Made by a program: the position numbers and the translations under genes
Shown here: piece after piece, positions 1,270 through 25,220 of the stretch
Numbering within the stretch: position 1 is the stretch's first letter
Layout: each line of letters opens with the position of its first letter
Notes under the pieces: model-generated
The model's input: the letters and a program-made list of their open reading frames with translations, nothing else
Told to the model about the DNA's origin: nothing
The model's database searches: none
IMG/VR virus record: IMGVR_UViG_3300038428_000280
Coordinates: 1 to 64,000 of that record
Source: a virus
Reading direction: 5' to 3' (one strand)
DNA length: 64,000 bases

Positions 1270-1450
1270 ATTTTAAAAATCCTTTTCCTTTGCAGGTTGG
1301 ACATATTCTTTTAGTGATACTATTATCCTCAACATCATCATCCATTTCATCTAATAATGCAAGTGGCAACCCAACCGTTAAAAGCAAACTCATAGGGTCA
1401 AATATAACCCTTCTACCTTTACATCTAGGGCATATATAGCAATCACTCAT
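1262..1450 (-). CDS. Small DnaJ-type zinc finger protein
   Basis: CPRCKGRR and CPTCKGKG motifs. Confidence 0.65.
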   Translation of the reverse strand: MSDCYICPRCKGRRVIFDPMSLLLTVGLPLALLDEMDDDVEDNSITKRICPTCKGKGFLKYE

Positions 1451-2228
1451 ATTTTGGAATTATGTTAAGTAATTGTTCTTTGCTTTCAGTAAATTTCCAA
1501 GCCGGTTTGGATACCCAATGGGTTCTTTCAAAATCCACACAAGTCGTTGGACTAACTGCTGTCTCCAAATATTTTTCTTTTACAATCAATCTACCGAATT
1601 TCAATAATGGAATGATGTTTTCCCAATCGTATGAACCCCAACCACCATATTCTTTTAACATTTGAATCATTTCAATGGTTGATTTACCTTGCAGTTCTTT
1701 ATGAGAAAACACAGATTGAGCCAACATTGATATGCTGTTACGAGCACAATCCTGATTTCTCCAAATGAAGTAATTCATAACTTCAATTCGGTCAGGAATA
1801 GTGAACACACGGGCATCAAAATAGGCCAACTTAAAATCTGCCATTGTAGGTTGTGTTTCATAGTGTCTCATTCTTCTTAGATGATTAAACTCAGCAGTTA
1901 TGATTGAAGCTGACACCGAAGCCATTTTCTGAATATTTCCGTCAAACCAAGCAGAAGTGGTGGGTAGAGCAAAGTCTGTCACCAATACCGAGATTTCATC
2001 AGACTGGGTGTAGGCGAACACTGCCCCCTGTATATGGGGTAGCATAGCAATAATTGCACTGTCTATATCAGTAGATAAGTCGGTATCAAAAGGTTTCTGT
2101 AATCTTCTTGTGTAAGTATGAAACGCTTTACCGTCAAGTCTGATGATGGTATAAGTGCGTCTAGGAACAAAGTATCTTGTCCTATCCTCATATTGACTTT
2201 TCATCCGTTCGCCGAGTTCATCCTTCAT
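1443..2228 (-). CDS. tRNA(His) guanylyltransferase Thg1-like protein (3'-5' polymerase)
   Basis: RMKSQYE, IIRLDGKAFH, YTQSDEIS, FDARVF and WRNQDCARNS motifs. Confidence 0.92.
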   Translation of the reverse strand: MKDELGERMKSQYEDRTRYFVPRRTYTIIRLDGKAFHTYTRRLQKPFDTDLSTDIDSAIIAMLPHIQGAVFAYTQSDEISVLVTDFALPTTSAWFDGNIQKMASVSASIITAEFNHLRRMRHYETQPTMADFKLAYFDARVFTIPDRIEVMNYFIWRNQDCARNSISMLAQSVFSHKELQGKSTIEMIQMLKEYGGWGSYDWENIIPLLKFGRLIVKEKYLETAVSPTTCVDFERTHWVSKPAWKFTESKEQLLNIIPKYE

Positions 2229-6150: not shown

Positions 6151-7173
6151 TTAAATTCCTGTTATTGGTTTTAAATTGGAACGTCTGCGTCCAAATGCTT
6201 TTTCCCTAGCAGCAACGAATATGTCAACAACATCATCCTTTGGATATTGTGGGCGGTTATCAACACTGCGAGCAATCATTTTTTTGATAAAGTCGCAAAT
6301 TTCATCGGGAACATCAGTCGGAACAACCTTTCTTTCAACATAATCTGTTCCGCCTGAAAGAGCAAACACCATCGTCATTCCGATGGAATAGTAATCAGAT
6401 TCAGGTATAAGTGGTTTTCCTGAAACGGCTTCGGGTGCTGCGAAGAAAGGTGTATAACCTTTTGCTTCCGATTTACTTGTGGGTTTTACCATTGACAAAC
6501 CATAATCCACCAATACTGCCATGTGTTTGTCGGGTTGAACAATGACGTTTTGTGGTTTAATATCGCCGTGAACAACACCATTGCGGTGAAGATACATACA
6601 AGCATTCAAAATTCTTTCAGAAATCCAAGCAACGTGTTCGGGGTCAATTCTTCCAATTTTTGTCACCAATTGCTCAAGCGTTGGACCGGGAATGTAACTC
6701 ATTATTAGCAACACTCTACCGTCATCCATCTTGATTAAATCTCTCATTGCCGGGATGGCATAATGTCTTAAATCCCAAGTGGTTTTACATTCGTCAATCA
6801 ACATTTGGGTGTCTTGAAGAGAAACGTTTGAACAATCTTTAATACAAACCAATTCCCCAAGAATTGAATGTTCAGCCTTGTAGGTTCTTCCAAATCCACC
6901 TTCAGCAATTACACTCAAAAGCTTGTACGGGCCAATCATTTTACCAAGACCAACATTTTCACGATCATGGTCATAATTTGACCTTTTGGTTGGGTCGGAT
7001 AAAACATCAAAAGCTTCGTTTACGTCACGTGCGGTTAATCCTGTCGCACTTGCGCCCATGTCAGGATGATAAACTTTCATCAAACTATGATATGCCGCAG
7101 TAATGACTTCCGGCCTTGCTCTTGGATTTACCTCAAGCACAGCGTAGAAGTCTTTAAGTTTTGGGCCTTTCAT
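6151..7173 (-). CDS. J-domain / Ser-Thr protein kinase fusion
   Basis: N-terminal DFYAVLEV..YHPD..VNEAFDVLSDPTKRSNYD; kinase motifs EGGFGRTY, HGDIKPQN, DYG, APE. Confidence 0.9.
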   Translation of the reverse strand: MKGPKLKDFYAVLEVNPRARPEVITAAYHSLMKVYHPDMGASATGLTARDVNEAFDVLSDPTKRSNYDHDRENVGLGKMIGPYKLLSVIAEGGFGRTYKAEHSILGELVCIKDCSNVSLQDTQMLIDECKTTWDLRHYAIPAMRDLIKMDDGRVLLIMSYIPGPTLEQLVTKIGRIDPEHVAWISERILNACMYLHRNGVVHGDIKPQNVIVQPDKHMAVLVDYGLSMVKPTSKSEAKGYTPFFAAPEAVSGKPLIPESDYYSIGMTMVFALSGGTDYVERKVVPTDVPDEICDFIKKMIARSVDNRPQYPKDDVVDIFVAAREKAFGRRRSNLKPITGI

Positions 7174-12371: not shown

Positions 12372-13385
12372 TTATTTTCCTGTTGGTGGTGGTGCAAAAC
12401 CAAGAGGCCGGCCATCATACTCATAGTTTCTACTATTCAAAGTTGAGGTTGTTGCTCTCATCATTTCCTTTAAAGTTTCAACCGCTTCTTCAAACTTTTT
12501 CTCAAAACAACACACGGAAATAACAAGTTCAGCACAAGCAGCAAATGAAAATCCTTCGGAGGCCAAAACCCATTTTTCAATTTCATCATCAGAAACTTTT
12601 AATTTCTTTTCAAAATACATTTTTCTGACAGCGGGTGTGGGCATGTTGATTTGAATCACCCGGTCAAATCTTCTTGGCCTTGCCACCAATCGTTTGTCCA
12701 ATTTTTCAGGATAATTGGTGGTAGCGATGTTCAAAACCTTGTCAATCTGATTTTCGCCGTCCAACAACGTAAGGATTTCGTCTTCACCATGTTCATCAAC
12801 AATGGCATCAATATCTTCAAACAAGCACACAATGGGCCGGTTGGGTTCAACTTTTCTGAATTGGGATAATCCATCATTGAATATGGCTGGGTGGTTGTTG
12901 CATTGAAAAACAAGGCCGTCTTCCCTTACAATATCAGCAATAATCTGTTGGACAAGGCAGGTCTTGCCGGAACCTGCGGGGCCGTGTAACAAATACCCCC
13001 TACGGTGTAGGAAGCCATGTTCCAAAAATTTCTTACCTTTACCCCAAAAGGTGGTAATCTCAGCAAGAATTTTATCTGAAACCGAATCGGGAAATCTTAG
13101 AAGGTCATCAATGCATATATGCTTTTTTTGATAAATTATTCCGTGATATTGACTGACCGCAATACTATACACTCCACTTTGGAGTTTGGGAAAAGTAACT
13201 GAAACAGGCTTGTAAGTATTGGGGCCACAAACGGCCCATTGGACAAGAGAGATTGAATTCAATATGTCATTGTGTTCGTCTTTTTCAACAGCAGGCATGT
13301 CAGGTCGGCCACTACTTTTTGATTTCCTTGCTAAGTTAGCAGGTCTTGGGGCTGTTCCGAAAACTTCAAGATTCATTTCACTCAT
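12372..13385 (-). CDS. AAA+ ATPase
   Basis: RRGYLLHGPAGSGKT, FEDID, TTNYPEKLD and RPRRFD motifs. Confidence 0.9.
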   Translation of the reverse strand: MSEMNLEVFGTAPRPANLARKSKSSGRPDMPAVEKDEHNDILNSISLVQWAVCGPNTYKPVSVTFPKLQSGVYSIAVSQYHGIIYQKKHICIDDLLRFPDSVSDKILAEITTFWGKGKKFLEHGFLHRRGYLLHGPAGSGKTCLVQQIIADIVREDGLVFQCNNHPAIFNDGLSQFRKVEPNRPIVCLFEDIDAIVDEHGEDEILTLLDGENQIDKVLNIATTNYPEKLDKRLVARPRRFDRVIQINMPTPAVRKMYFEKKLKVSDDEIEKWVLASEGFSFAACAELVISVCCFEKKFEEAVETLKEMMRATTSTLNSRNYEYDGRPLGFAPPPTGK

Positions 13386-13394
13386 AATGCAAAG

Positions 13395-13422
13395 ATCCTA
13401 CACCAAATTGAAATAGAGTCAA
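13395..13422 (-). promoter_or_regulatory. sigma70-type promoter
   Basis: TTGACT-16nt-TAGGAT, immediately after the terminator. Confidence 0.55.
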
Positions 13423-13426
13423 TTTA

Positions 13427-13463
13427 TAAAAAAAAGGCGTGGAGATTTCTCACCACGCCTTTT
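13427..13463 (-). terminator. Intrinsic terminator after the DUF2828 gene
   Basis: AAAAGGCGTGG..CCACGCCTTTT stem with a long U tract on the minus strand. Confidence 0.85.
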
Positions 13464-13483
13464 CTGTAATCTACGATAATTTG

Positions 13484-15100
13484 TTAAATCACGATAGCGT
13501 TGTAACGCTTGTCGGTGATTGCCGACAACATCAAGTCCAACGGAGTCAAATACTTAGCCGAACAAATCTTCTTCAAGATTGAAGGATGGCTACCGCTGAC
13601 CAAAGCCACACCGGCATCGGAGAACTTGATTGGCACGTTATTCTGACGCGAATCCACCTGCCACCAAACAACGTTTGGAAGCTTGTAACCTGCGAGTTCA
13701 AACTTTTCCTTCATTACTTCAAAGTTGGTCTTGTCATTATCTGAACTAGCCATGTCAAATTGCATGTCTGAAATGATAAACAACATCGCAGGCATATCCT
13801 TTTGTGGAACATGATTTGCCACCGCAGTTTTTAGTATCAAATCAAAAGAGGCTTGAAGATTGGTGTTGCCATCCCAACCACCGTCATCCAAATTCTTCCA
13901 CTTTTCCAACAGATTGTTACCAATAAGTCGGTGGAAGCAAGGGTTCATTGAGAAAGTCATGAATACATCCTTGAAGGGACCAATATTTCTTTCAGCAAAG
14001 TAAATTGCCAAAGATACGGCTACATACAAAGGAAGACCGTGCATAGAACCGGATGTATCAGCAATAACCAATCCTTTGCCGTCGCCGTCAATAAAATTGG
14101 GAAGAGCCTTCCATTGCAAATCAGCCGCCTTCAATGAAGTTGCTGACTGAGCATTTTCCACAATAGTTCGGAGAATGTCATATGGAAATACGGCACTAGC
14201 GTTAATCTTGGCTTCGCCCTTTTCAACGCGGCTGAGGTATTCCTTGTAACTTTCATTGGCTCTCTTTTCAAAAGCCTTGCGATAATTCAAAGTTGCCTTT
14301 GAAGGAACTTGTTCAAAATTAATGTCATCCCATTGACGGGCGCACATTTTGACTTCCACAACATCAATGTATTTGCGAAGTTGTGAGAGGGTCTTGCGAT
14401 ACTTCTTGGAATTCCAACCAAGCCACTCGCGGAGCTTGCGAGCCAACGCAACGGATTCCTTTGAAGAAGTGTTTTCAGACTTCAGCCATTTGGCCAATAG
14501 TGAAACATTCTTCCCTATCTTCATGTTATGCCAATCGGTAGCCAATTGCGTAGTCATCGCAATCATGGCATCTTTTTCCAATTCGGTTCCGAAGAGGGTG
14601 TAAAGGTCGTCCCAACGTCCGTAAAGAGGAACGTTCAAAACGTTTTTACGAACAATGTCCGGATAATTACTAGCCAACCACTTTAGGATGGTGCGGAAAG
14701 TTTTGCGCTCGCCCTGTCCACCACGAATATCGCGGATATAGAACAAGGTCTTGAGGGCCAAGAGCTTGTCTTCGGCAAAAGCCTTGGTGAAAAGTTGAAC
14801 CACTTCGCTATCAGTGCGCTTACGCAAAGCACCTGCATTACCGAAGAAATCAAGAAGATTGCTAAGTGTGCTCTTGTAGGCAAGAGCTAGGTTTTCAGTG
14901 ACAGTAACATTGCTGGCATTTTCAAGGCCGGCCACAAGGGAATTTTTTCCGCTTGAACCAAACGGTGATACATACTCAGTATAGCAATTCTTTGCTATTT
15001 CTCTAAGTTGTTCATTGGATACTTTGTTAGGTCGTGATTCCTCATAACCAAATTGGGATGCCTTGACTGCCATTTTCTTGACTGATGCGTTCTTCTTCAT
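13484..15100 (-). CDS. TROVE/Ro60-like helical domain plus vWA protein (DUF2828-type)
   Basis: TENLALAYKST, LDFF, FYIRDIRGGQGER, YGRWDDL, LLAKW and VPSKA motifs; vWA DTSGSM, TNLQASFDLIL, ISDMQFD. Confidence 0.87.
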   Translation of the reverse strand: MKKNASVKKMAVKASQFGYEESRPNKVSNEQLREIAKNCYTEYVSPFGSSGKNSLVAGLENASNVTVTENLALAYKSTLSNLLDFFGNAGALRKRTDSEVVQLFTKAFAEDKLLALKTLFYIRDIRGGQGERKTFRTILKWLASNYPDIVRKNVLNVPLYGRWDDLYTLFGTELEKDAMIAMTTQLATDWHNMKIGKNVSLLAKWLKSENTSSKESVALARKLREWLGWNSKKYRKTLSQLRKYIDVVEVKMCARQWDDINFEQVPSKATLNYRKAFEKRANESYKEYLSRVEKGEAKINASAVFPYDILRTIVENAQSATSLKAADLQWKALPNFIDGDGKGLVIADTSGSMHGLPLYVAVSLAIYFAERNIGPFKDVFMTFSMNPCFHRLIGNNLLEKWKNLDDGGWDGNTNLQASFDLILKTAVANHVPQKDMPAMLFIISDMQFDMASSDNDKTNFEVMKEKFELAGYKLPNVVWWQVDSRQNNVPIKFSDAGVALVSGSHPSILKKICSAKYLTPLDLMLSAITDKRYNAIVI

Positions 15101-15119
15101 AACGGTTCCTTTTTGTTGC

Positions 15120-15288
15120 GAGATAGTTGTTTTTCCTATAATGGATTAATTGCTGTTCCTATCTCAAATTTTTATAAACTAGATTCGCTTTTTTGTCAAT
15201 TTTATTGCTGCACGAATCTAAAAATCTAGCTAGATGCCATTTTTGTTTTTCTTTTGAATGAAAAAAATTTTATTGCTGTTAGCATCTA
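15120..15288 (-). ncRNA. Array of three hairpins with a conserved CAGCAAU loop motif in the DUF2828 leader
   Basis: Units at 15231-15288, 15180-15220 and 15120-15165. Each has a perfect 7-8 bp stem, then CAGCAAT, then an A-rich loop. Confidence 0.75.
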
Positions 15289-15309
15289 AATCTTCTACTT
15301 GATGTTGAC

Positions 15310-15338
15310 ATCATATACTAACTTCGGGTCAGTGTCAA
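15310..15338 (-). promoter_or_regulatory. sigma70-type promoter for the hairpin array and DUF2828 gene
   Basis: TTGACA-17nt-TATGAT, inside the imperfect inverted repeat GATGTTGACA...TGTCAAGCATC. Confidence 0.75.
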
Positions 15339-15401
15339 GCATCTTTTCAATGTTCCGAATACCCATATATAGGGACGAAAAAGAAAAAGCGCAAAAAATT
15401 T

Positions 15402-16113: not shown

Positions 16114-17220
16114 TCATCGGTTGACACCACTCAAAAAACGTTTTTTGGTTTCTTCAAAGGTCAGATGAGCCGCATCGTCGTAATACACCGATTTTGCAAT
16201 CAAACGATTTTCAGATTGCAGTTTTGTAAACCGTTTGATGGCTGACACCTTCCACTGTTCTATTTGTTTTTCCAAGTCTTTTAATTCCTGAATGGGTTTC
16301 AATTGGGATTCTTCTATTTTACATTGTAGAAAATCATTGCTGTTTTCATATAGGGAAACATAATGAACACCACGTTGAATTCCGTGATAAATCGTTTTAT
16401 AATCTATTCCCAAATCTTTGCAAATATTTCTCATCAACTCATCTTTATAACGATTGGGATTTACATCATCATCTTTTTTCACAGGTGCCGGATACTTAAT
16501 TTTCCAATCATTTAACACAATTTCCGGCAATTCTATGGGTACTTTCCCTGACGTTGTTCCTAAATTCTGCCAAAATTTTATACCGGTGTATTGGCAAAAA
16601 GACCCATAAAGACTTGTGGTGGTCACTCCAACAACCATGTCACCATATTTTTCCTTCCATGCGTTTCTAAAATAATCTGTTACCACAATTCTAGCCAATA
16701 ACTTGCCACCCAAACAATTATAACCGAATGGTTGAAGAGGCACAAGAACTTGTGCGTTCATCAAATTATTTATTCGTTTATTCTTGTATTTGTGGTCTTT
16801 GGACCACCCGATGAAATTATCTCTAGCCGATAAAGCACCAATGTCTCCAGCAATGGTTATCATACCAAGAAACTTACCATCATTACTATTTTCTACAAGA
16901 AATGACAATTTTCTGCCGGGGTAGTTATTTTGAAGTGCAGAAGATGTAAACAACATGAAATTTTTGTATATGCGATACAATTCTTCATCAGAATCGTTTA
17001 CAGGCAAGATTCTTATCTTTAGATTTTTTATTTCCTCTATGGTTTTTGGATTGGAAATCTTGTATTTGGAACGCAGAAAAGGCATGATTTCATTTATATG
17101 CCTCTGAATTTCATACCATTTGATTTTTAAAGTATATTCTTCCAGCGATAGGGATTTTAATTCTTGAATCGTCGCTAGTGTTTTATCTTCTTGTGGCTCT
17201 ATAAAATCAAACAAATTCAT
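16114..17220 (-). CDS. DUF4338 / DruA-like protein (GNAT-related, possible DNA modification)
   Basis: PGRKLSFLV, RDNFIGW, LVPLQPFGYNCLGGKLLA, TTTSLYG and QY motifs. Confidence 0.75.
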   Translation of the reverse strand: MNLFDFIEPQEDKTLATIQELKSLSLEEYTLKIKWYEIQRHINEIMPFLRSKYKISNPKTIEEIKNLKIRILPVNDSDEELYRIYKNFMLFTSSALQNNYPGRKLSFLVENSNDGKFLGMITIAGDIGALSARDNFIGWSKDHKYKNKRINNLMNAQVLVPLQPFGYNCLGGKLLARIVVTDYFRNAWKEKYGDMVVGVTTTSLYGSFCQYTGIKFWQNLGTTSGKVPIELPEIVLNDWKIKYPAPVKKDDDVNPNRYKDELMRNICKDLGIDYKTIYHGIQRGVHYVSLYENSNDFLQCKIEESQLKPIQELKDLEKQIEQWKVSAIKRFTKLQSENRLIAKSVYYDDAAHLTFEETKKRFLSGVNR

Positions 17221-19954: not shown

Positions 19955-20028
19955 GCAGATGTGGTGTAGTGGCAGCCCACGACATTGCCAATGTTGAAGT
20001 GAGGGTTCGATTCCCTTCATCTGCTCCA
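19955..20028 (+). tRNA. tRNA-Gly(GCC)
   Basis: GCAGATG/CATCTGC acceptor stem, TTGCCAA loop, GGTTCGATTCC, encoded CCA. Confidence 0.93.
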
Positions 20029-20030
20029 AC

Positions 20031-20106
20031 GCGATATTGGTGTTTAACGGCAGCATGTGACCCCTCCAAGGTCGGGGTGAGAGTTCGAATCTCTCATATC
20101 GCTCCA
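20031..20106 (+). tRNA. tRNA-Gly(TCC) with C33
   Basis: GCGATAT/ATATCGC acceptor stem, TGACC-CCTCCAA-GGTCG anticodon arm, TTCGAAT T loop, TCCA end. Confidence 0.88.
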
Positions 20107-20116
20107 ATTTTAAACG

Positions 20117-20392
20117 ATGAATATTATACCTTCATGTCAATGTTTATCAGATTTCATGAAGGCTCAGATGGATGTGGTCTCTAAGCATTTAGATGAACAC
20201 AAATATCTTAGAAATATTCCCGGTAGGGAAGAGGCGTTGGCATCGTTTATAAACGATTATGGATGGTTAATAAGGGAATTGTATTGCACAAGAATTTGTG
20301 AAAAAAGGTCTGAATGTGAAATTGCACTACAATTAAGCAGTAGTGGAGACCTGTTACGAAATCATCAAAAAAATGATAAAATGCCCGGTTAG
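20117..20392 (+). CDS. Hypothetical protein inside the tRNA cluster
   Basis: 91-aa ORF (C.C...YC..IC..R..C); stop codon lies inside the next tRNA. Confidence 0.65.
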   Translation: MNIIPSCQCLSDFMKAQMDVVSKHLDEHKYLRNIPGREEALASFINDYGWLIRELYCTRICEKRSECEIALQLSSSGDLLRNHQKNDKMPG

Positions 20393-20475
20393 CACAGCGG
20401 CAAGTGCGGTGGTCTTATACACCATAAACCCTAGATTTGGGTAAGACGGGGGTTCGAGTCCCTCATCGGGCACCA
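20383..20475 (+). tRNA. tRNA-Ile(TAT) with long variable arm
   Basis: GCCCGGT/ATCGGGC acceptor stem, GTGGT-CTTATAC-ACCAT anticodon arm, 22-nt variable region, TTCGAGT, ACCA. Confidence 0.85.
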
Positions 20476-20507
20476 AAAATTTTATGGATGGTGAATAAAA
20501 AATTTAT

Positions 20508-20586
20508 CGCGGGGTAGAGAAGCCCGGCCTATCTTGTCATGCTCATAACGTGAAGAACGTTGGTTCGAATCCAACTCCCGCAACCA
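20508..20586 (+). tRNA. tRNA-Met(CAT), initiator-like (C1:A72 mismatch)
   Basis: CGCGGGG...TCCCGCA-ACCA; CTCATAA loop. Confidence 0.9.
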
Positions 20587-20590
20587 ATTT

Positions 20591-20700
20591 TGGGTGAAAC
20601 GCAAAGCGACTCACAAGGGGACGCAAAGCGACCTCGGAGTATTTTTAATAATACTTACTCTCAATCGAACACGTCATTTGGCCAATGAACTTTGATTGAG
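20591..20700 (+). ncRNA. Candidate structured RNA in a tRNA spacer
   Basis: Direct repeat ACGCAAAGCGAC (20599, 20621) in twin hairpins, plus stem CTCAATCGAA/TTTGATTGAG. Confidence 0.45.
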
Positions 20701-20704
20701 TTAT

Positions 20705-20789
20705 GCTACAGTGGCGGAACTGGCAGACGCGCTAGACTCAAAATCTAGTGGAGAAATCCGTGTGGGTTCGACTCCCACCTGTAGCACCA
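20705..20789 (+). tRNA. tRNA-Leu(CAA)
   Basis: GCTACAG/CTGTAGC acceptor stem, CTCAAAA loop, long variable arm, ACCA. Confidence 0.94.
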
Positions 20790-20802
20790 ATTTTGTCGTT
20801 GA

Positions 20803-20897
20803 TATTGGACACGTCCCGTGAAACATCGGGCCCCGCTGTAGGGGAGAAAAGTTGGCCACGACTAAGTGCTGCAGCATGATAGAGCCGAGTTCCAATA
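20803..20897 (+). ncRNA. Candidate GC-rich pseudoknotted RNA between the Leu tRNAs
   Basis: Closing stem TATTGGA/TCCAATA, three internal stems, loop GCTGTA(G) complementary to CTGCAGC. Confidence 0.55.
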
Positions 20898-20902
20898 CAA
20901 AA

Positions 20903-20987
20903 GCCACCGTGGCGGAAGTGGAAGACGCGACAGACTTAAAATCTGTTTCCTTCGGGAGTGGGGGTTCGATTCCCTCCGGTGGCACCA
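20903..20987 (+). tRNA. tRNA-Leu(TAA)
   Basis: GCCACCG/CGGTGGC acceptor stem, CTTAAAA loop, long variable arm, ACCA. Confidence 0.94.
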
Positions 20988-22268: not shown

Positions 22269-22859
22269 ATGAAACTCAACTGTAACAGTTTTTTTGACGG
22301 AGAATTTGAATATCTCAATCTAAATGAATTGTATCTAAAATATAGAAATCTTTTAACGGATACAAAAATTCCTTCGCAAATTCAATTTTTATTAAATCAA
22401 TTCCACAACAATACATTTGGTGGATATGCAGAAGATAGAAAGGATATTTGGAAAGGAACCTACTTGGATAAACATGGGAATTATATTCATTTGGGAGTTG
22501 ATATCAATGTCAGAGCAGGAACCAACATTCGATGCCCTTTTGATGCCAAAGTAATTGATATTTTTATTGATAGCGATACACAAATTGGTTGGGGCGGTAG
22601 AATAATTTTACAGCCAAGCGAATATTTACCATATTTGGTTTTAGCTCATATTGAACCGACATCTTTAGTCAATAAAAATTATTTTAAGAAAGGTGAAATT
22701 ATTGGTCAAGTTGGGACTTGGCCAGCCAATGGCAACACTTTTCAACATCTACATGTTCAACTTGTTAAAGATTTGGATATAAACAATTTTGACGGATATG
22801 GTTGTGTTGAAGATTTGTCAAACAATATTGACCCTTTCGAAATGGAGTTTAAAATATGA
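22269..22859 (+). CDS. M23 family peptidase-like protein
   Basis: HLGVD (HxxxD) and HLH zinc motifs. Confidence 0.78.
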   Translation: MKLNCNSFFDGEFEYLNLNELYLKYRNLLTDTKIPSQIQFLLNQFHNNTFGGYAEDRKDIWKGTYLDKHGNYIHLGVDINVRAGTNIRCPFDAKVIDIFIDSDTQIGWGGRIILQPSEYLPYLVLAHIEPTSLVNKNYFKKGEIIGQVGTWPANGNTFQHLHVQLVKDLDINNFDGYGCVEDLSNNIDPFEMEFKI

Positions 22860-23875
22860 CAAAATTAGCCACCCTAGAAAGAATTCATAGCATTCAACCC
22901 CACCCAAACAAGGAAGTGGAAAAACTTGAAATTGGCAAAGTAAAGGAATGGCCTGTCGTCATTCCAAAAGGCCAATTCAAGGATGGCGATCTTGTTGTTT
23001 TTATTCAAATTGATTCCATTTGCCCCAAAGAAAATCCCTACTTTGCCTTTCTTGAAAGACAAAAGTATAGAATTTGGAATGCTAAGTTTAAAGGAGCGCC
23101 TTCACAAGGTCTTGTGTGTCCTCTTTCTATTCTACCTAGAGGGGATTCATCCCTGAGAATAGAGGAAGGAGCAGATGTTACCGAACATCTTGGCATCACT
23201 AAATATGAAAAACCTCTTGATTTAAGTATTTGCGGCGATGCTAAAGGTGGATTTCCGACACACTTGATTCCTATTACCGATGAAGACAATTTACTCAATA
23301 ATCCTGAAACTCTTAATGAATTCATGGGAGAAGAATGTTATCTTACCGTAAAGGTTGACGGTTCTTCCATGACCATTATCCATGATAACGGTGAAGTTAG
23401 GGTTTGCAGTCGCAGATTGGAGCAAAAAGAAGGAACAGGATTTTGGAAGATTGCTGAACAATACGATTTGCCAAACAAACTTAAGGCTCAGATGGCGTTG
23501 AATATTGCCATTCAATCGGAAGCTTGTGGTGGAAAAATTCAGGGAAACCCATTGGGACTTTCCGAACCCTGTATGTTTGTCTTTAATGTCAAAGATATAA
23601 CTACAGGCAAGTGGTATGGTTGGGAAGAAATTAAATCCATTTGTTCATTGTTCAATATACCATCTGTGAGATTGGTTTGTGAACCTTTCATCTTTGATGA
23701 AACTTGGACCATTGCAAAACTTCAAGAAGAAGCAAATAAGGTGGTCTATGTGACTGCAAAAGGTGAAACAAAGAAAGGCGAAGGAGTGGTTCTTCGACCT
23801 ACTAAACCAAAATATTCAGCTATTCTTGGTAAACCACTGTCGGTTAAAATCTTAAATCAGGAGTATAAACAATGA
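22856..23875 (+). CDS. ATP-dependent RNA ligase (DRB0094-like)
   Basis: N-terminal KLATLERI..HPN..KLE..FKDGDLVVFIQIDS; motif I KVDGSS; CSR, IQGNPL and GEGVVLRP. Confidence 0.9.
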   Translation: MTKLATLERIHSIQPHPNKEVEKLEIGKVKEWPVVIPKGQFKDGDLVVFIQIDSICPKENPYFAFLERQKYRIWNAKFKGAPSQGLVCPLSILPRGDSSLRIEEGADVTEHLGITKYEKPLDLSICGDAKGGFPTHLIPITDEDNLLNNPETLNEFMGEECYLTVKVDGSSMTIIHDNGEVRVCSRRLEQKEGTGFWKIAEQYDLPNKLKAQMALNIAIQSEACGGKIQGNPLGLSEPCMFVFNVKDITTGKWYGWEEIKSICSLFNIPSVRLVCEPFIFDETWTIAKLQEEANKVVYVTAKGETKKGEGVVLRPTKPKYSAILGKPLSVKILNQEYKQ

Positions 23876-24405: not shown

Positions 24406-24745
24406 TTTATTTCTTGATGACAACCGCGACCCAAACAAGTTTCTTAACGATACAAAAACTTGGGTGATTGCACGTAATTATAATCAATTTGTAGATATAA
24501 TTACGAAACAGGGTTTACCTGATTTGATTTCATTTGACCATGATTTGTGTGATGTTGACCAAGGAAAGGTGGAGGATTTCAAGGAAAAAACAGGGTATGA
24601 TTGTGCCAAGTGGTTGATTGAATATTGCATGAAAACAAATCAATCGTTACCCAAATGGCAAATTCATACATTTAATCCAGCAGGCATGATAAATATTTAC
24701 GATATTTTATCTACATATAACAATAAGGAAGAGGTTTGTGAATGA
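24395..24745 (+). CDS. Cyclic-phosphate-processing receiver-like domain protein
   Basis: LFLDDNR, ISFDHDL, TGYDCAKWL and HTFNPAG motifs. Confidence 0.85.
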   Translation: MSYNLFLDDNRDPNKFLNDTKTWVIARNYNQFVDIITKQGLPDLISFDHDLCDVDQGKVEDFKEKTGYDCAKWLIEYCMKTNQSLPKWQIHTFNPAGMINIYDILSTYNNKEEVCE

Positions 24746-25220
24746 TATGGACGATTTAATAAAAAATATTGGTGATAAAAAGAAAGCTTTGATTATTCTT
24801 GTGGGTCCTCCTGCAAGTGGTAAATCAACTTGGGGTAAGAAATTTGCTTTGGATAATGGTGTGGTCTATGTTTCAACCGATGAAATCAGAAAAGAAATTG
24901 GCTCGGGAGAAGGCGACCAAACCGTGTCTGCTGTGGCTTTCGGTATTGCTCGTCGCAGAGTTTCAGCCGCTTTGAGTGCAGGTAAAAATGTAATGATTGA
25001 TGCCACCAACGTCAACAGAAAATCTCGTAAGGATTGGGTTAATTTGGGAAAAGGTCATTCATCGTATATTATTGCTGTCGCTTTTGAGGTTCCAAAAGCC
25101 GAACTTTTGAAAAGAGATGCGAAGCGTGAACGTCAAGTTGGACCGGAAGTTATTGACAGATTTATAAACAAATATGCCCGTCCAGCAGCAGACGAAGTGA
25201 ACAAGGTTATCATTAAATAA
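24738..25220 (+). CDS. Polynucleotide kinase-like P-loop kinase (AAA_33)
   Basis: GPPASGKST, STDEIR, IDATN and R..R.V..VI motifs. Confidence 0.87.
   Translation: MNDMDDLIKNIGDKKKALIILVGPPASGKSTWGKKFALDNGVVYVSTDEIRKEIGSGEGDQTVSAVAFGIARRRVSAALSAGKNVMIDATNVNRKSRKDWVNLGKGHSSYIIAVAFEVPKAELLKRDAKRERQVGPEVIDRFINKYARPAADEVNKVIIK

What the first reader, a model, noticed from the sequence alone, without database searches (positions are those of the whole stretch)
13484..15338. Ro/TROVE-like DUF2828-vWA protein co-transcribed with an array of three CAGCAAU hairpin RNAs
Seen in sequence: a self-contained unit made of a sigma70 promoter (TTGACA-17-TATGAT), a ~200-nt leader, the CDS and a strong terminator. 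The leader holds three tandem units, written on the sense strand: TAGATGC-TAACAGCAAT...-GCATCTA, TAGATTCG-TGCAGCAAT...-CGAATCTA and GAGATAG-GAACAGCAAT...-CTATCTC. Stem sequences differ but pair perfectly, which resembles covariation. The loop motif CAGCAAU sits 2-3 nt from each stem, and the loops are A-rich and vary in length. Established: TROVE+vWA (Ro60/Rsr) proteins bind Y RNAs encoded next to them and often sit near RNA-repair genes. Inference: the hairpins are either processed mini Y-like ligands or guides for the protein, or repeated binding sites for autoregulation. Either way this looks like a phage ribonucleoprotein system that I cannot assign to a known RNA family.
Basis: partly seen in the sequence, partly recalled or inferred. 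Interest (0 to 1): 0.88.

Follow-up and report, generated by a model that had tools for sequence, protein, structure and literature searches.

The report
Mini Y-like RNAs, phage Ro60-like gene
A large uncultured phage transcribes three small hairpin RNAs with one shared "handle" just ahead of a gene for a ring-shaped Ro60-like protein; the same RNA-gene pairing recurs in hundreds of phages, appears in no RNA catalogue or paper I could search, and the RNAs are probably the protein's partners.

Summary
The unit on the minus strand has a sigma70-type promoter (15338-15310), a ~200-nt leader with three hairpins (15291-15229, 15223-15178, 15168-15118), a 538-aa DUF2828+DUF7788 gene (15100-13484) and a strong terminator (13465-13428).

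The protein model has the Ro60 fold (TROVE-like ring plus vWA; Z 19.0 to Thermus phage phiLo Ro60), although Pfam TROVE does not match.

The hairpins belong to a real, strand-specific, covarying RNA family:
- An 8-10 bp handle joins the 5' and 3' ends, with near-invariant A-U and G-C pairs and a 3' G. CAGCAA follows the 5' arm, and the 3' side of the loop is A-rich.
- A model built from 43 copies found 120 matches in 83 homolog loci, all on the gene strand.
- It found only the three leader copies in this 85-kb record.
- In the reverse test, 32 of 39 contigs carrying the motif hold the gene.
- In relatives, the same handle lies flush between tRNAs or closes YrlA-like tRNA mimics.

No Rfam family or searched paper describes these RNAs. 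The most likely reading is Y-RNA-like ligands of the protein. Binding and expression are not shown.

This scan has noted the same pairing before on other DNA (87 notes, at least 83 genomes).

Novelty: no Rfam family matches.

In relatives the same module lies downstream of the gene (45 of 120 matches). In the closest complete relative it lies 130-150 kb away, flush between tRNA genes. In a mycobacteriophage it closes a YrlA-like tRNA mimic.

Not shown here: that the RNAs are made or cut out, or that the protein binds them. Nothing supports the word 'guides'.

The parts
15310..15338 (-). sigma70-type promoter, TTGACA-17-TATGAT; the predicted start of transcription is near 15303
   Evidence: 11 of 12 consensus matches. 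The promoter block is conserved in relatives L002 (84% protein identity) and L005 (71%) and absent in L004. No RNA data support it.
15229..15291 (-). handle RNA 1: 8-10 bp stem joining the ends, CAGCAAU after the 5' arm, 44-nt A/U-rich loop
   Evidence: R1 score 52.1 bits, E 7.6e-9. Fold -10.6 kcal/mol, z -2.5. An ortholog is present in L002, L004 and L005.
15178..15223 (-). handle RNA 2: 9-10 bp stem, CAGCAAU, 25-nt loop; the smallest of the three
   Evidence: R1 score 39.9 bits. Fold z -3.0. The orthologs in L004 and L005 carry compensatory changes (U-A to A-U, and G-C to A-U). It is deleted in L002.
15118..15168 (-). handle RNA 3: 8 bp stem, CAGCAAU, 32-nt loop; its 3' arm ends 18 nt before the ATG
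   Evidence: R1 score 45.4 bits. Fold z -3.2. The orthologs in L004 and L005 differ by two compensatory pair changes.
15101..15117 (-). spacer with a Shine-Dalgarno-like AAGGA, about 7 nt before the ATG; not covered by hairpin 3
   Evidence: Read from the sequence and conserved in the alignment.
13484..15100 (-). 538-aa DUF2828 + DUF7788 protein: Ro60-like helical-repeat ring plus a vWA domain with a DxSxS MIDAS motif (D348, S350, S352)
   Evidence: Pfam; PHROG 850 'RNA-binding protein', E 8e-142; invariant D348, S350, S352; model, pLDDT 75.4; Ro60 structures, Z 13.2-19.0.
13428..13465 (-). intrinsic terminator: GC-rich stem followed by eight U, starting 19 nt after the stop codon
   Evidence: -21.6 kcal/mol, z -7.07, 0 of 200 shuffles as good.

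Best explanation
The unit encodes a phage ribonucleoprotein of the Ro60/Y-RNA type, built from a different protein branch (DUF2828/DUF7788) and a different RNA family.

One promoter gives one transcript that carries three small handle RNAs followed by the mRNA of the ring protein.

Each RNA folds into an 8-10 bp stem that joins its two ends. The stem has near-invariant A-U and G-C pairs near its base and a 3' G. A single-stranded CAGCAA(U) follows the 5' arm, and the 3' side of the loop is A-rich.

I infer that host RNases cut the three RNAs out of the leader as species of about 45-62 nt. I also infer that the protein binds the handle plus CAGCAA, much as Ro60/Rsr binds the stem and 5'-proximal motif of Y RNAs. 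The variable loop would be the cargo. Here the loop is minimal; in relatives it is a hairpin or a whole tRNA-like body.

By analogy with Rsr-YrlA and with the RNA-repair genes nearby, the particle probably acts in RNA or tRNA surveillance, or in recruiting a nuclease, during infection.

Shown here: the anatomy, the covariation, the strand-specific co-occurrence and the fold. Inferred: transcription, processing, binding and biological role.
For: (1) Fold. The model matches phiLo Ro60 (9kop, Z 19.0, rmsd 4.6, 403 residues aligned), Xenopus Ro60 bound to RNA (1yvp, Z 15.2) and Deinococcus Rsr (2nvo, Z 13.7). The best vWA-only match scores 10.6. The MIDAS residues are invariant in 15 homologs.

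(2) RNA family.
- Model R1 gave 120 matches at E<=0.01 in 83 distinct homolog loci (521 kb, both strands), all on the gene strand.
- 47 of the 83 loci have a match at E<=0.01, and 71 of 83 have one at E<=5. Among the weaker matches the strands split 47 to 1.
- A plain scan for a stem of at least 8 bp next to CAGCA found 176 sites on the gene strand against 21 on the other. Five scrambled motifs gave 6-37 per strand.

(3) Covariation. 86.3% of cells are paired, against 64.8% shuffled and 31-39% slid. 9 of 10 pairs have changes on both sides, for example AU 56/UA 50 and CG 48/AU 42/GC 25. The outermost pair is U-G in 53 of 116 sequences, which works only on this strand.

(4) Specificity. The three leader copies are the only matches in the 85-kb record. 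The tRNA cluster at 19955-20987 has none.

(5) Reverse test. An exact handle pattern searched across all viral contigs hit 46 stretches on 39 contigs.
- 32 contigs hold a DUF2828 gene, and it lies on the same strand in 31 of 31 stretches.
- For comparison, 711 of 50,697 phage records (1.4%) hold a homolog.

(6) Trans-acting form in relatives.
- 45 of 120 copies lie downstream of the gene.
- In the 365-kb closest relative, copies sit 1-3 nt from the flanking tRNAs.
- A permuted handle sits inside tRNA-like bodies: 70 on the gene strand against 11 on the other, for stems of at least 6 bp.
- In Mycobacterium phage Lumos the handle closes a tRNA mimic that matches Rfam YrlA below threshold (39.3 bits against a gathering score of 69), right after the DUF2828 gene.

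(7) Range. In 80 loci from bacterial and archaeal assemblies there were 125 matches at E<=5, 123 of them on the gene strand, in 63 of 80 loci.

(8) Context in the window. A Thg1-like gene, an RNA ligase, an AAA_33 kinase and six tRNAs lie within 12 kb.
Against: - There is no expression or binding evidence of any kind. Everything rests on comparative sequence analysis and a predicted fold of middling confidence (pLDDT 75.4, pTM 0.65; residues 1-77 are not modelled).
- In this window the RNAs sit inside the 5' UTR with no terminator or tRNA beside them, so release as separate RNAs is not evident here.
- 12 of 83 homolog loci had no match within 2.5 kb, even at E<=5.
- One complete 250-kb phage genome carries a good copy (36.6 bits) but has no DUF2828 or TROVE gene.
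- Several loci are near-identical pairs, so the counts overstate independence.
- Alignment A3 was fitted to the model, which inflates the paired fraction.
- Co-occurrence does not prove direct binding. Another conserved factor could be the ligand.
Confidence: 0.68

Rival explanations
1. Cis-only autoregulation. The three hairpins are operator sites in the mRNA leader. The protein, or another factor, binds them to control translation or stability of its own message, and they are never released.
For: In this window, and in L002, L004 and L005, all copies lie in the 5' UTR between the promoter and the start codon. Upstream copies are the majority (75 of 120), at a median of 82 nt from the gene. 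RNA-binding proteins often regulate their own mRNA through a mimic of their ligand (established knowledge).
Against: - Hairpin 3 leaves the Shine-Dalgarno sequence and the ATG free.
- 45 of 120 copies lie downstream of the gene.
- In the closest complete relative, copies lie 130-150 kb away inside tRNA arrays.
- The handle also closes tRNA-like RNAs.
- A feedback role could still exist alongside a trans-acting role.
Confidence: 0.12
2. RNA-processing or stability punctuation of phage tRNA and early operons. The hairpins would be nuclease entry sites or protective ends, unrelated to the DUF2828 protein, which merely tends to lie in the same region.
For: In relatives many copies abut tRNA genes. 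One complete phage genome has a copy without the gene. Six fragmentary contigs show copies in tRNA arrays with no DUF2828 gene on the fragment.
Against: - In this record, the tRNA cluster has no copy and the DUF2828 leader has all three.
- 32 of 39 motif-bearing contigs hold the gene, against a 1.4% background.
- In two complete genomes, all 9 matches lie within about 5 kb of the gene.
- The six fragments are only 4-29% complete.
- Six invariant single-stranded letters and a handle whose sequence is conserved suggest a specific protein ligand rather than a generic nuclease site.
Confidence: 0.1
3. DNA-level elements: inverted repeats that act as protein-binding sites, or as replication or recombination signals.
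For: They are inverted repeats with a conserved core.
Against: - All 120 of 120 matches are on the gene strand.
- The outermost pair is U-G in 53 of 116 sequences, which would be a C-A mismatch on the other strand.
- The arms are 25-110 nt apart and vary freely in sequence while keeping their pairing.
- Copies are embedded in tRNA-like transcripts.
Confidence: 0.02

Closest known systems
Bacterial and phage Rsr (Ro60) with YrlA/YrlB Y RNAs (Chen et al. 2014, PMC4201824, passages read; Rfam RF02553)
   Same: - The protein is a ring-shaped helical-repeat plus vWA protein.
- The partner RNAs are encoded within a few kb on the same strand, often in several copies.
- Each RNA is closed by a stem that joins its 5' and 3' ends, with a short conserved motif near the 5' end.
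- Some members carry a tRNA-like body with the T arm before the D arm.
- RNA-repair genes lie nearby.
- The small window RNAs resemble YrlB, which has the motif but, as I recall and did not check in a call, lacks the tRNA-like body.
   Different: - The protein is DUF2828/DUF7788, not Pfam TROVE. It is only 11-15% identical to solved Ro60 structures.
- The motif is CAGCAA placed after a handle of conserved sequence, not the GNCGAAN0-1G described for YrlA.
- No window RNA matches RF02553 or RF00019.
- The three window RNAs have no tRNA-like domain and sit inside the mRNA leader.
Thermus phage phiLo Ro60 with Yrl1 and Yrl2 (PMC12135203, abstract and passages read; PDB 9KOP, 9L5Y)
   Same: This is the best structural match (Z 19.0 and 18.3). 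It is phage-encoded, with two Y-like RNAs just upstream of the gene. According to that paper the protein binds them and forms complexes with host PNPase.
   Different: phiLo Ro60 is reported as a canonical Ro60 homolog, and its RNAs carry a CGAA motif in a large bulge. The sequences are not alignable: a PDB sequence search with the window protein found nothing at E<=1.
Class I RNAs of dictyostelid social amoebae (Kjellin et al. 2021, PMC7919456, passages read)
   Same: - Length is 42-65 nt, and a short covarying stem joins the two ends.
- A conserved motif lies directly after the 5' arm. Its near-invariant C6, C9, A10 and A11 fit C-x-x-C-A-A.
- The rest of the loop is variable.
- The ends are conserved: AAG at the start and CUGU at the end, with the G pairing the C. 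The phage family has (A/U)AG at the start and CU(A/U)GU at the end, with the same G-C pair.
   Different: - They are eukaryotic, with their own promoter element.
- They are reported as absent outside Dictyostelia.
- The only shown binder is an RRM protein (Rnp1A).
- The 3' end differs by one nucleotide.
- The T at position 3 of the motif fits only 1 of the 3 window RNAs.
- I could not run either model on the other's sequences, and I could not check whether dictyostelids carry a DUF2828 protein.

Membership tests
DUF2828/DUF7788 protein family (Pfam PF11443 + PF25043; PHROG 850) | Matches to both Pfam models above their gathering scores | tested here: met
   141 bits (cut-off 29) and 142.7 bits (cut-off 27.1). 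PHROG 850, E 7.8e-142.
Ro60 / TROVE proteins | TROVE domain detectable by sequence (Pfam PF05731) | tested here: not met
   The Pfam scan at E<=0.01 lists only DUF2828 and DUF7788. A sequence search of PDB found nothing at E<=1.
Ro60 / TROVE proteins | Helical-repeat ring followed by a vWA domain (fold) | tested here: met
   The ten best structural matches are full-length Ro60 or Rsr (Z 13.2-19.0, 386-404 residues aligned, rmsd 4.5-5.4). The next, vWA-only matches score at most 10.6. The model is of middling confidence.
Ro60 / TROVE proteins | MIDAS motif (DxSxS) in the vWA domain | tested here: met
   D348, S350 and S352 are invariant in 15 homologs.
Ro60 / TROVE proteins | Binds Y RNA and misfolded RNA | not testable with these tools
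   No RNA-protein prediction or experiment was available.
Y RNA / YrlA (Rfam RF00019, RF02553) | Match to the covariance model at its gathering score | tested here: not met
   No match in the window at gathering score, and none at E<=1 in the leader locus L001. In phage Lumos the tRNA-like relative reaches 39.3 bits against a gathering score of 69.
Y RNA / YrlA (Rfam RF00019, RF02553) | Stem joining the 5' and 3' ends, with a conserved motif near the 5' end and a large loop | tested here: met
   The architecture is met. The motif itself differs: CAGCAA against the GNCGAAN0-1G described in PMC4201824.
Y RNA / YrlA (Rfam RF00019, RF02553) | Encoded within about 4 kb of the protein gene, on the same strand | tested here: met
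   In the window the RNAs lie 18-191 nt upstream on the same strand. In relatives, 120 of 120 matches are on the same strand.
Y RNA / YrlA (Rfam RF00019, RF02553) | tRNA-like domain in at least one RNA of each species | tested here: not met
   The window loops are 25-44 nt with no tRNA-like arms, and there is no permuted form in the window. Only about 25% of the genome is held. Relatives do have such forms.
Dictyostelid Class I RNAs | 42-65 nt, with a short covarying stem joining the ends | tested here: met
   The window RNAs are about 45-62 nt. Covariation is shown.
Dictyostelid Class I RNAs | 11-nt motif after the 5' arm with T3, C6, C9, A10 and A11; start AAG, end CUGU | tested here: inconclusive
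   C6, C9, A10 and A11 fit CAGCAA (90-100% conserved). T3 fits 1 of the 3 window RNAs. The start is (A/U)AG, and the end is CU(A/U)GU, one nucleotide longer. I compared only with the paper's text; its figures and supplements were not seen.
Dictyostelid Class I RNAs | Match to the published Class I covariance model; upstream DUSE promoter element | not tested
   Neither the published model nor amoeba genomes are at hand. A eukaryotic promoter element does not apply to a phage.

The most novel reading that the evidence does not exclude
The phage handle RNAs and the Class I RNAs of Dictyostelium would be one ancient RNA family. Class I RNAs are abundant, developmentally regulated, of unknown mechanism, and reported as unique to social amoebae. 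Under this reading, a DUF2828-type Ro60-like protein would be their missing common partner, and Ro60/Y-RNA-type particles would have a second, unrecognised branch shared by phages, bacteria and eukaryotes.
Probability: 0.12. Interest if true: 0.92.

Novelty: new variant of a known kind. Interest (0 to 1): 0.72.

Why it matters
Ro60 with its Y RNAs is a classic RNA-surveillance particle and a human autoantigen. Its bacterial and phage biology is still thinly understood.

If the reading is right, it adds three things:
- A second, much more widespread phage branch. Homologs occur in 711 of 50,697 phage records. These include easily grown Felixounavirus, Listeria, Staphylococcus, Enterococcus, Campylobacter and mycobacterial phages.
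- A protein family that still carries a DUF name.
- An RNA family that is missing from Rfam.

It would also give a simple rule for Y-like RNAs: a conserved handle for the protein, joined to a swappable body that ranges from nothing (as in this window) to a full tRNA mimic.

Together with the nearby RNA ligase, kinase, Thg1-like gene and tRNAs, it points to a testable role in the contest between phage and host over tRNA and RNA integrity.

The three RNAs here are about the smallest natural members (45-62 nt). That makes them good substrates for binding and structural work.

Tried and rejected
DNA similarity. blastn of the unit against 50,697 phage records found no match. Relatives were reachable only through the protein.

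Sequence search of PDB. Nothing at E<=1. Only fold comparison links the protein to Ro60.

Rfam.
- At gathering score, on the window: only six tRNAs.
- At E<=1, on the leader locus and seven rich relatives: nothing for the hairpins.
- The best hit over the leader was STnc40 at 35 bits against a gathering score of 45 (E 0.019), together with STnc400 at 26.6 bits against 80. I take both as chance.

Expression. No RNA holder is listed for window 13400-15400. The 14 runs listed are on record as DNA, or guessed to be DNA. Read laying was therefore not used. This says nothing about expression.

ESM Atlas. It returned only DUF2828 clusters, mostly viral.

Literature. I claim 'not in print' only for the library searched with these terms.
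- 'DUF2828': 5 papers, none on RNA or phage.
- 'DUF7788/PF11443/PF25043/phrog_850': 1 unrelated paper.
- 'TROVE + bacteriophage + noncoding RNA + tRNA-like' from 2019: 1 unrelated review.
- 'Ro60 + phage + Y RNA': 22 papers. I read passages of three of them.
- The supplementary tables of Chen et al. 2014 list 22 phages. I could not see them, and they may include phages that carry the DUF2828-type protein.

Limits of model R1. It was built from short-loop copies and under-scores long-loop members. At E<=0.01 it missed 36 of 83 loci. 24 of those have gene-strand matches at E<=5. I did not build a second model.

Whole-record searches scored only 150 of 168-669 candidates, so some copies may be missed.

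Not tried.
- Complex prediction, which handles proteins only.
- A search of amoeba genomes, which are not held.
- A check of whether dictyostelids have a DUF2828 protein. Earlier notes claim this; I have not verified it.

Considered and dropped.
- Terminator or attenuator: no U-tract follows the stems.
- Riboswitch: no Rfam match, and copies lie downstream of genes and among tRNAs.
Full report
WHAT IS THERE

The window is part of an 85,160-base IMG/VR virus record judged about 25% complete. Its closest relatives are complete phage genomes of up to 365 kb, so this is a fragment of a jumbo phage.

The unit lies on the minus strand:
- A sigma70-type promoter, TTGACA-17-TATGAT, at 15338-15310.
- A leader of about 200 nt.
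- A 538-aa ORF at 15100-13484, preceded by an AAGGA Shine-Dalgarno sequence.
- A GC-rich hairpin followed by eight U at 13465-13428 (-21.6 kcal/mol, z -7.1).

Their stems differ but pair perfectly, CAGCAAU begins 2-3 nt after each 5' arm, and the loops are A-rich.

THE PROTEIN

Pfam gives DUF2828 and DUF7788, with no TROVE match. PHROG 850 is labelled 'RNA-binding protein'.

An AlphaFold2 model built from 15 homologs has pLDDT 75.4, with residues 1-77 disordered. Its ten best matches in the PDB are all full-length Ro60 proteins:
- Thermus phage phiLo Ro60: Z 19.0, rmsd 4.6, 403 residues aligned.
- Xenopus Ro60 with RNA: Z 15.2.
- Human Ro60: Z 14.0.
- Deinococcus Rsr: Z 13.7.

The next matches cover only the vWA domain and score at most 10.6. 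The MIDAS residues D348, S350 and S352 are invariant.

So the protein has the Ro60 fold, but by sequence it belongs to a separate family. That family is large: more than 7,800 database hits and 711 of 50,697 phage records.

THE RNAS ARE A REAL FAMILY

The same hairpins lie upstream of homologs with 84%, 73% and 71% protein identity, and they carry compensatory changes between orthologous copies. The promoter is conserved in two of those three relatives. A homolog with 42% identity has four copies with quite different stems.

A plain scan of 83 distinct homolog loci for a stem of at least 8 bp next to CAGCA found 176 sites on the gene strand and 21 on the other. Five scrambled motifs gave 6-37 per strand.

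A covariance model, R1, built from 43 copies, gave these results:
- 120 matches at E<=0.01 in 521 kb, all on the gene strand.
- 75 matches upstream of the gene (median 82 nt), 45 downstream and none inside.
- 47 of 83 loci have a match at that threshold.
- In the other 36 loci, matches at E<=5 split 47 to 1 by strand and add 24 loci, giving 71 of 83.

Several loci are near-identical pairs, so these are not 83 independent observations.

Covariation:
- 86.3% of cells are paired, against 64.8% in shuffles and 31-39% with slid partners.
- 9 of 10 pairs change on both sides.
- The alignment was fitted to the model, which favours pairing. The slid controls and the many pair types per column (for example CG 48, AU 42, GC 25) argue that the helix is real.

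Consensus. At the 5' end the sequence is (A/U)(A/U)-A(96%)-G(99%)-R-Y and onward. CAGCAA follows at 100, 99, 100, 99, 96 and 90% conservation. Next comes a stretch almost free of G, then an A-rich 3' strand. The 3' end is C(99%)-U(96%)-(A/U)-G(99%)-U.

The outermost U-G pair (53 of 116 sequences) and the strand bias mean the element acts as RNA.

SPECIFICITY FOR THE GENE

In this record, R1 finds only the three leader copies. The six-tRNA cluster at 19955-20987 has none.

In two complete relatives, all 6 and all 3 matches lie within about 5 kb of the gene.

For a reverse test, I searched every viral contig for an exact form of the handle, without reference to the gene:
- It hit 46 stretches on 39 contigs.
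- 32 of the 39 contigs hold a DUF2828 gene.
- The gene is on the same strand in 31 of 31 stretches where it lies in the stored part.
- The background is 1.4% of phage records.
- Of the 7 contigs without the gene, 6 are fragments that are 4-29% complete; the three I checked for tRNA genes are tRNA-array stretches.
- The seventh is a complete 250-kb genome with no DUF2828 or TROVE gene. That is a genuine exception.

In 80 loci from bacterial and archaeal assemblies, 123 of 125 matches at E<=5 (46 of them at E<=0.01) are on the gene strand. 63 of the 80 loci have at least one.

FREE RNAS OR CIS SITES?

Here the copies are in the 5' UTR, which fits either reading. Relatives settle it in favour of a trans-acting module.
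- In the 365-kb closest relative, further copies lie 130-150 kb from the gene. They sit 1-3 nt from the flanking tRNA genes (Val and Pro; His and Lys), so ordinary tRNA processing would release them.
- In other phages, the handle is circularly permuted: 3' arm, tetraloop, 5' arm, then CAGCAA. This form is inserted into tRNA-like bodies. For stems of at least 6 bp there are 70 on the gene strand against 11 on the other.
- In Mycobacterium phage Lumos, the DUF2828 gene is annotated 'RNA-binding protein'; sister phages say 'Ro-like'. It is followed by a simple handle RNA, then a 131-nt RNA, then another simple handle RNA.
- The 131-nt RNA is closed by the same handle, and its inside matches Rfam YrlA below threshold (39.3 bits against 69), with T-like and D-like arms.

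This is the YrlA design of Chen et al. 2014, with the proposed Rsr-binding motif (GNCGAAN0-1G, passages read) replaced by the CAGCAA handle. It is the strongest argument that the handle is the protein's docking site.

A feedback role for the leader copies remains possible alongside this.

CONTEXT

The window carries the following:
- A Thg1-like gene at 1443-2228, 11.3 kb from the unit.
- Six tRNAs, 4.6 kb from the unit.
- An RNA ligase at 22856-23875, 7.5 kb from the unit.
- An AAA_33 kinase at 24738-25220, 9.4 kb from the unit.

In Listeria phage LP-048, an RtcB-like ligase lies 1.3 kb downstream of the homolog. This mirrors the rsr-rtcB neighbourhood of bacteria.

COMPARISON WITH WHAT IS KNOWN

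It works like Ro60/Rsr with Y RNAs. The nearest cases are Rsr-YrlA/YrlB and phiLo Ro60-Yrl1/2 (PMC4201824 and PMC12135203, passages read).

It is not a member of Pfam TROVE or of Rfam Y_RNA or YrlA; both were tested and not met.

No Rfam family and no paper in the searched library describes the RNA or links DUF2828 to RNA. A jumbo-phage survey mentions only 'ROT/TROVE' proteins in a few phages (PMC7824862, passage).

I therefore class it as a new variant of a known kind.

EARLIER NOTES OF THIS SCAN

The same pairing has been noted on other DNA 87 times, in at least 83 genomes. Follow-up agents reached the same reading. One later check kept the observation (90/100) but gave the bold reading 6/100.

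I re-derived everything above from my own calls.

The lead to Dictyostelium Class I RNAs came from those notes. I could test it only against the text of Kjellin et al. 2021. The size, the stem joining the ends, the motif position and its C-x-x-C-A-A core, the AAG start and the CUGU end all resemble the phage family. But the 3' end differs by one nucleotide, the reported binder is an RRM protein, and I could run no reciprocal model search or proteome check. I give shared ancestry about 12%.

WHAT IS NOT SHOWN

Transcription, processing, binding and function are not shown. No RNA run was listed for this DNA.

Noticed in passing
window 16114-17220 (-): A 368-aa protein about 1 kb upstream of the unit matches Pfam DruA (Druantia defence protein A), E 2.4e-26 and 93 bits. 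This is a defence-system family carried by a phage. Another note on this genome calls such genes DUF4338/DruA-like and proposes a role in DNA modification.
   Followed up: no
window 1443-2228 (-), 19955-20987 (+), 22856-23875 (+), 24738-25220 (+): A set of tRNA supply and RNA repair genes surrounds the unit: a Thg1-like enzyme, six tRNAs, an RNA ligase (PF09414) with an OB-fold domain, and an AAA_33 kinase.
   Followed up: partly
window 6151-7173 (-): A 340-aa protein combines an N-terminal DnaJ domain with a Ser/Thr protein kinase domain. This is an unusual fusion for a phage.
   Followed up: no
window 12372-13385 (-): The gene just downstream of the unit's terminator encodes an AAA ATPase with weak STAND/NACHT-like matches.
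   Followed up: no
window 20383-20475 (+) and 20803-20897 (+): ARAGORN calls a 93-nt tRNA-Ile (anticodon tat), which is long for that type. Neither contains the CAGCAA handle.
   Followed up: no
L028 4083-4202 and 4377-4488; L033 5841-5953 and 6101-6215: These are tRNA-like genes of 112-120 nt whose anticodon region is replaced by a circularly permuted handle plus CAGCAA (3' arm, tetraloop, 5' arm, motif). Rfam's tRNA model matches them, but ARAGORN does not call them.
   Followed up: partly
L130 4599-4650 (record G008, complete, 249,820 bases): A well-formed handle RNA (36.6 bits) lies in a complete phage genome that has no detectable DUF2828 or TROVE gene. Either its partner is too divergent to detect, or the RNA can work without it.
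   Followed up: partly
L224 1448-1999 (Listeria phage LP-048): A ROOL-like RNA just below Rfam's threshold (90 bits against 99.1, E 2.8e-17) lies 1 kb upstream of the DUF2828 gene. Two handle RNAs lie between it and the gene, and an RtcB-like ligase lies downstream.
   Followed up: no
L008 7114-7197: A skipping-rope RNA (RF02924, 75 bits) sits in the tRNA cluster downstream of a DUF2828 gene.
   Followed up: no
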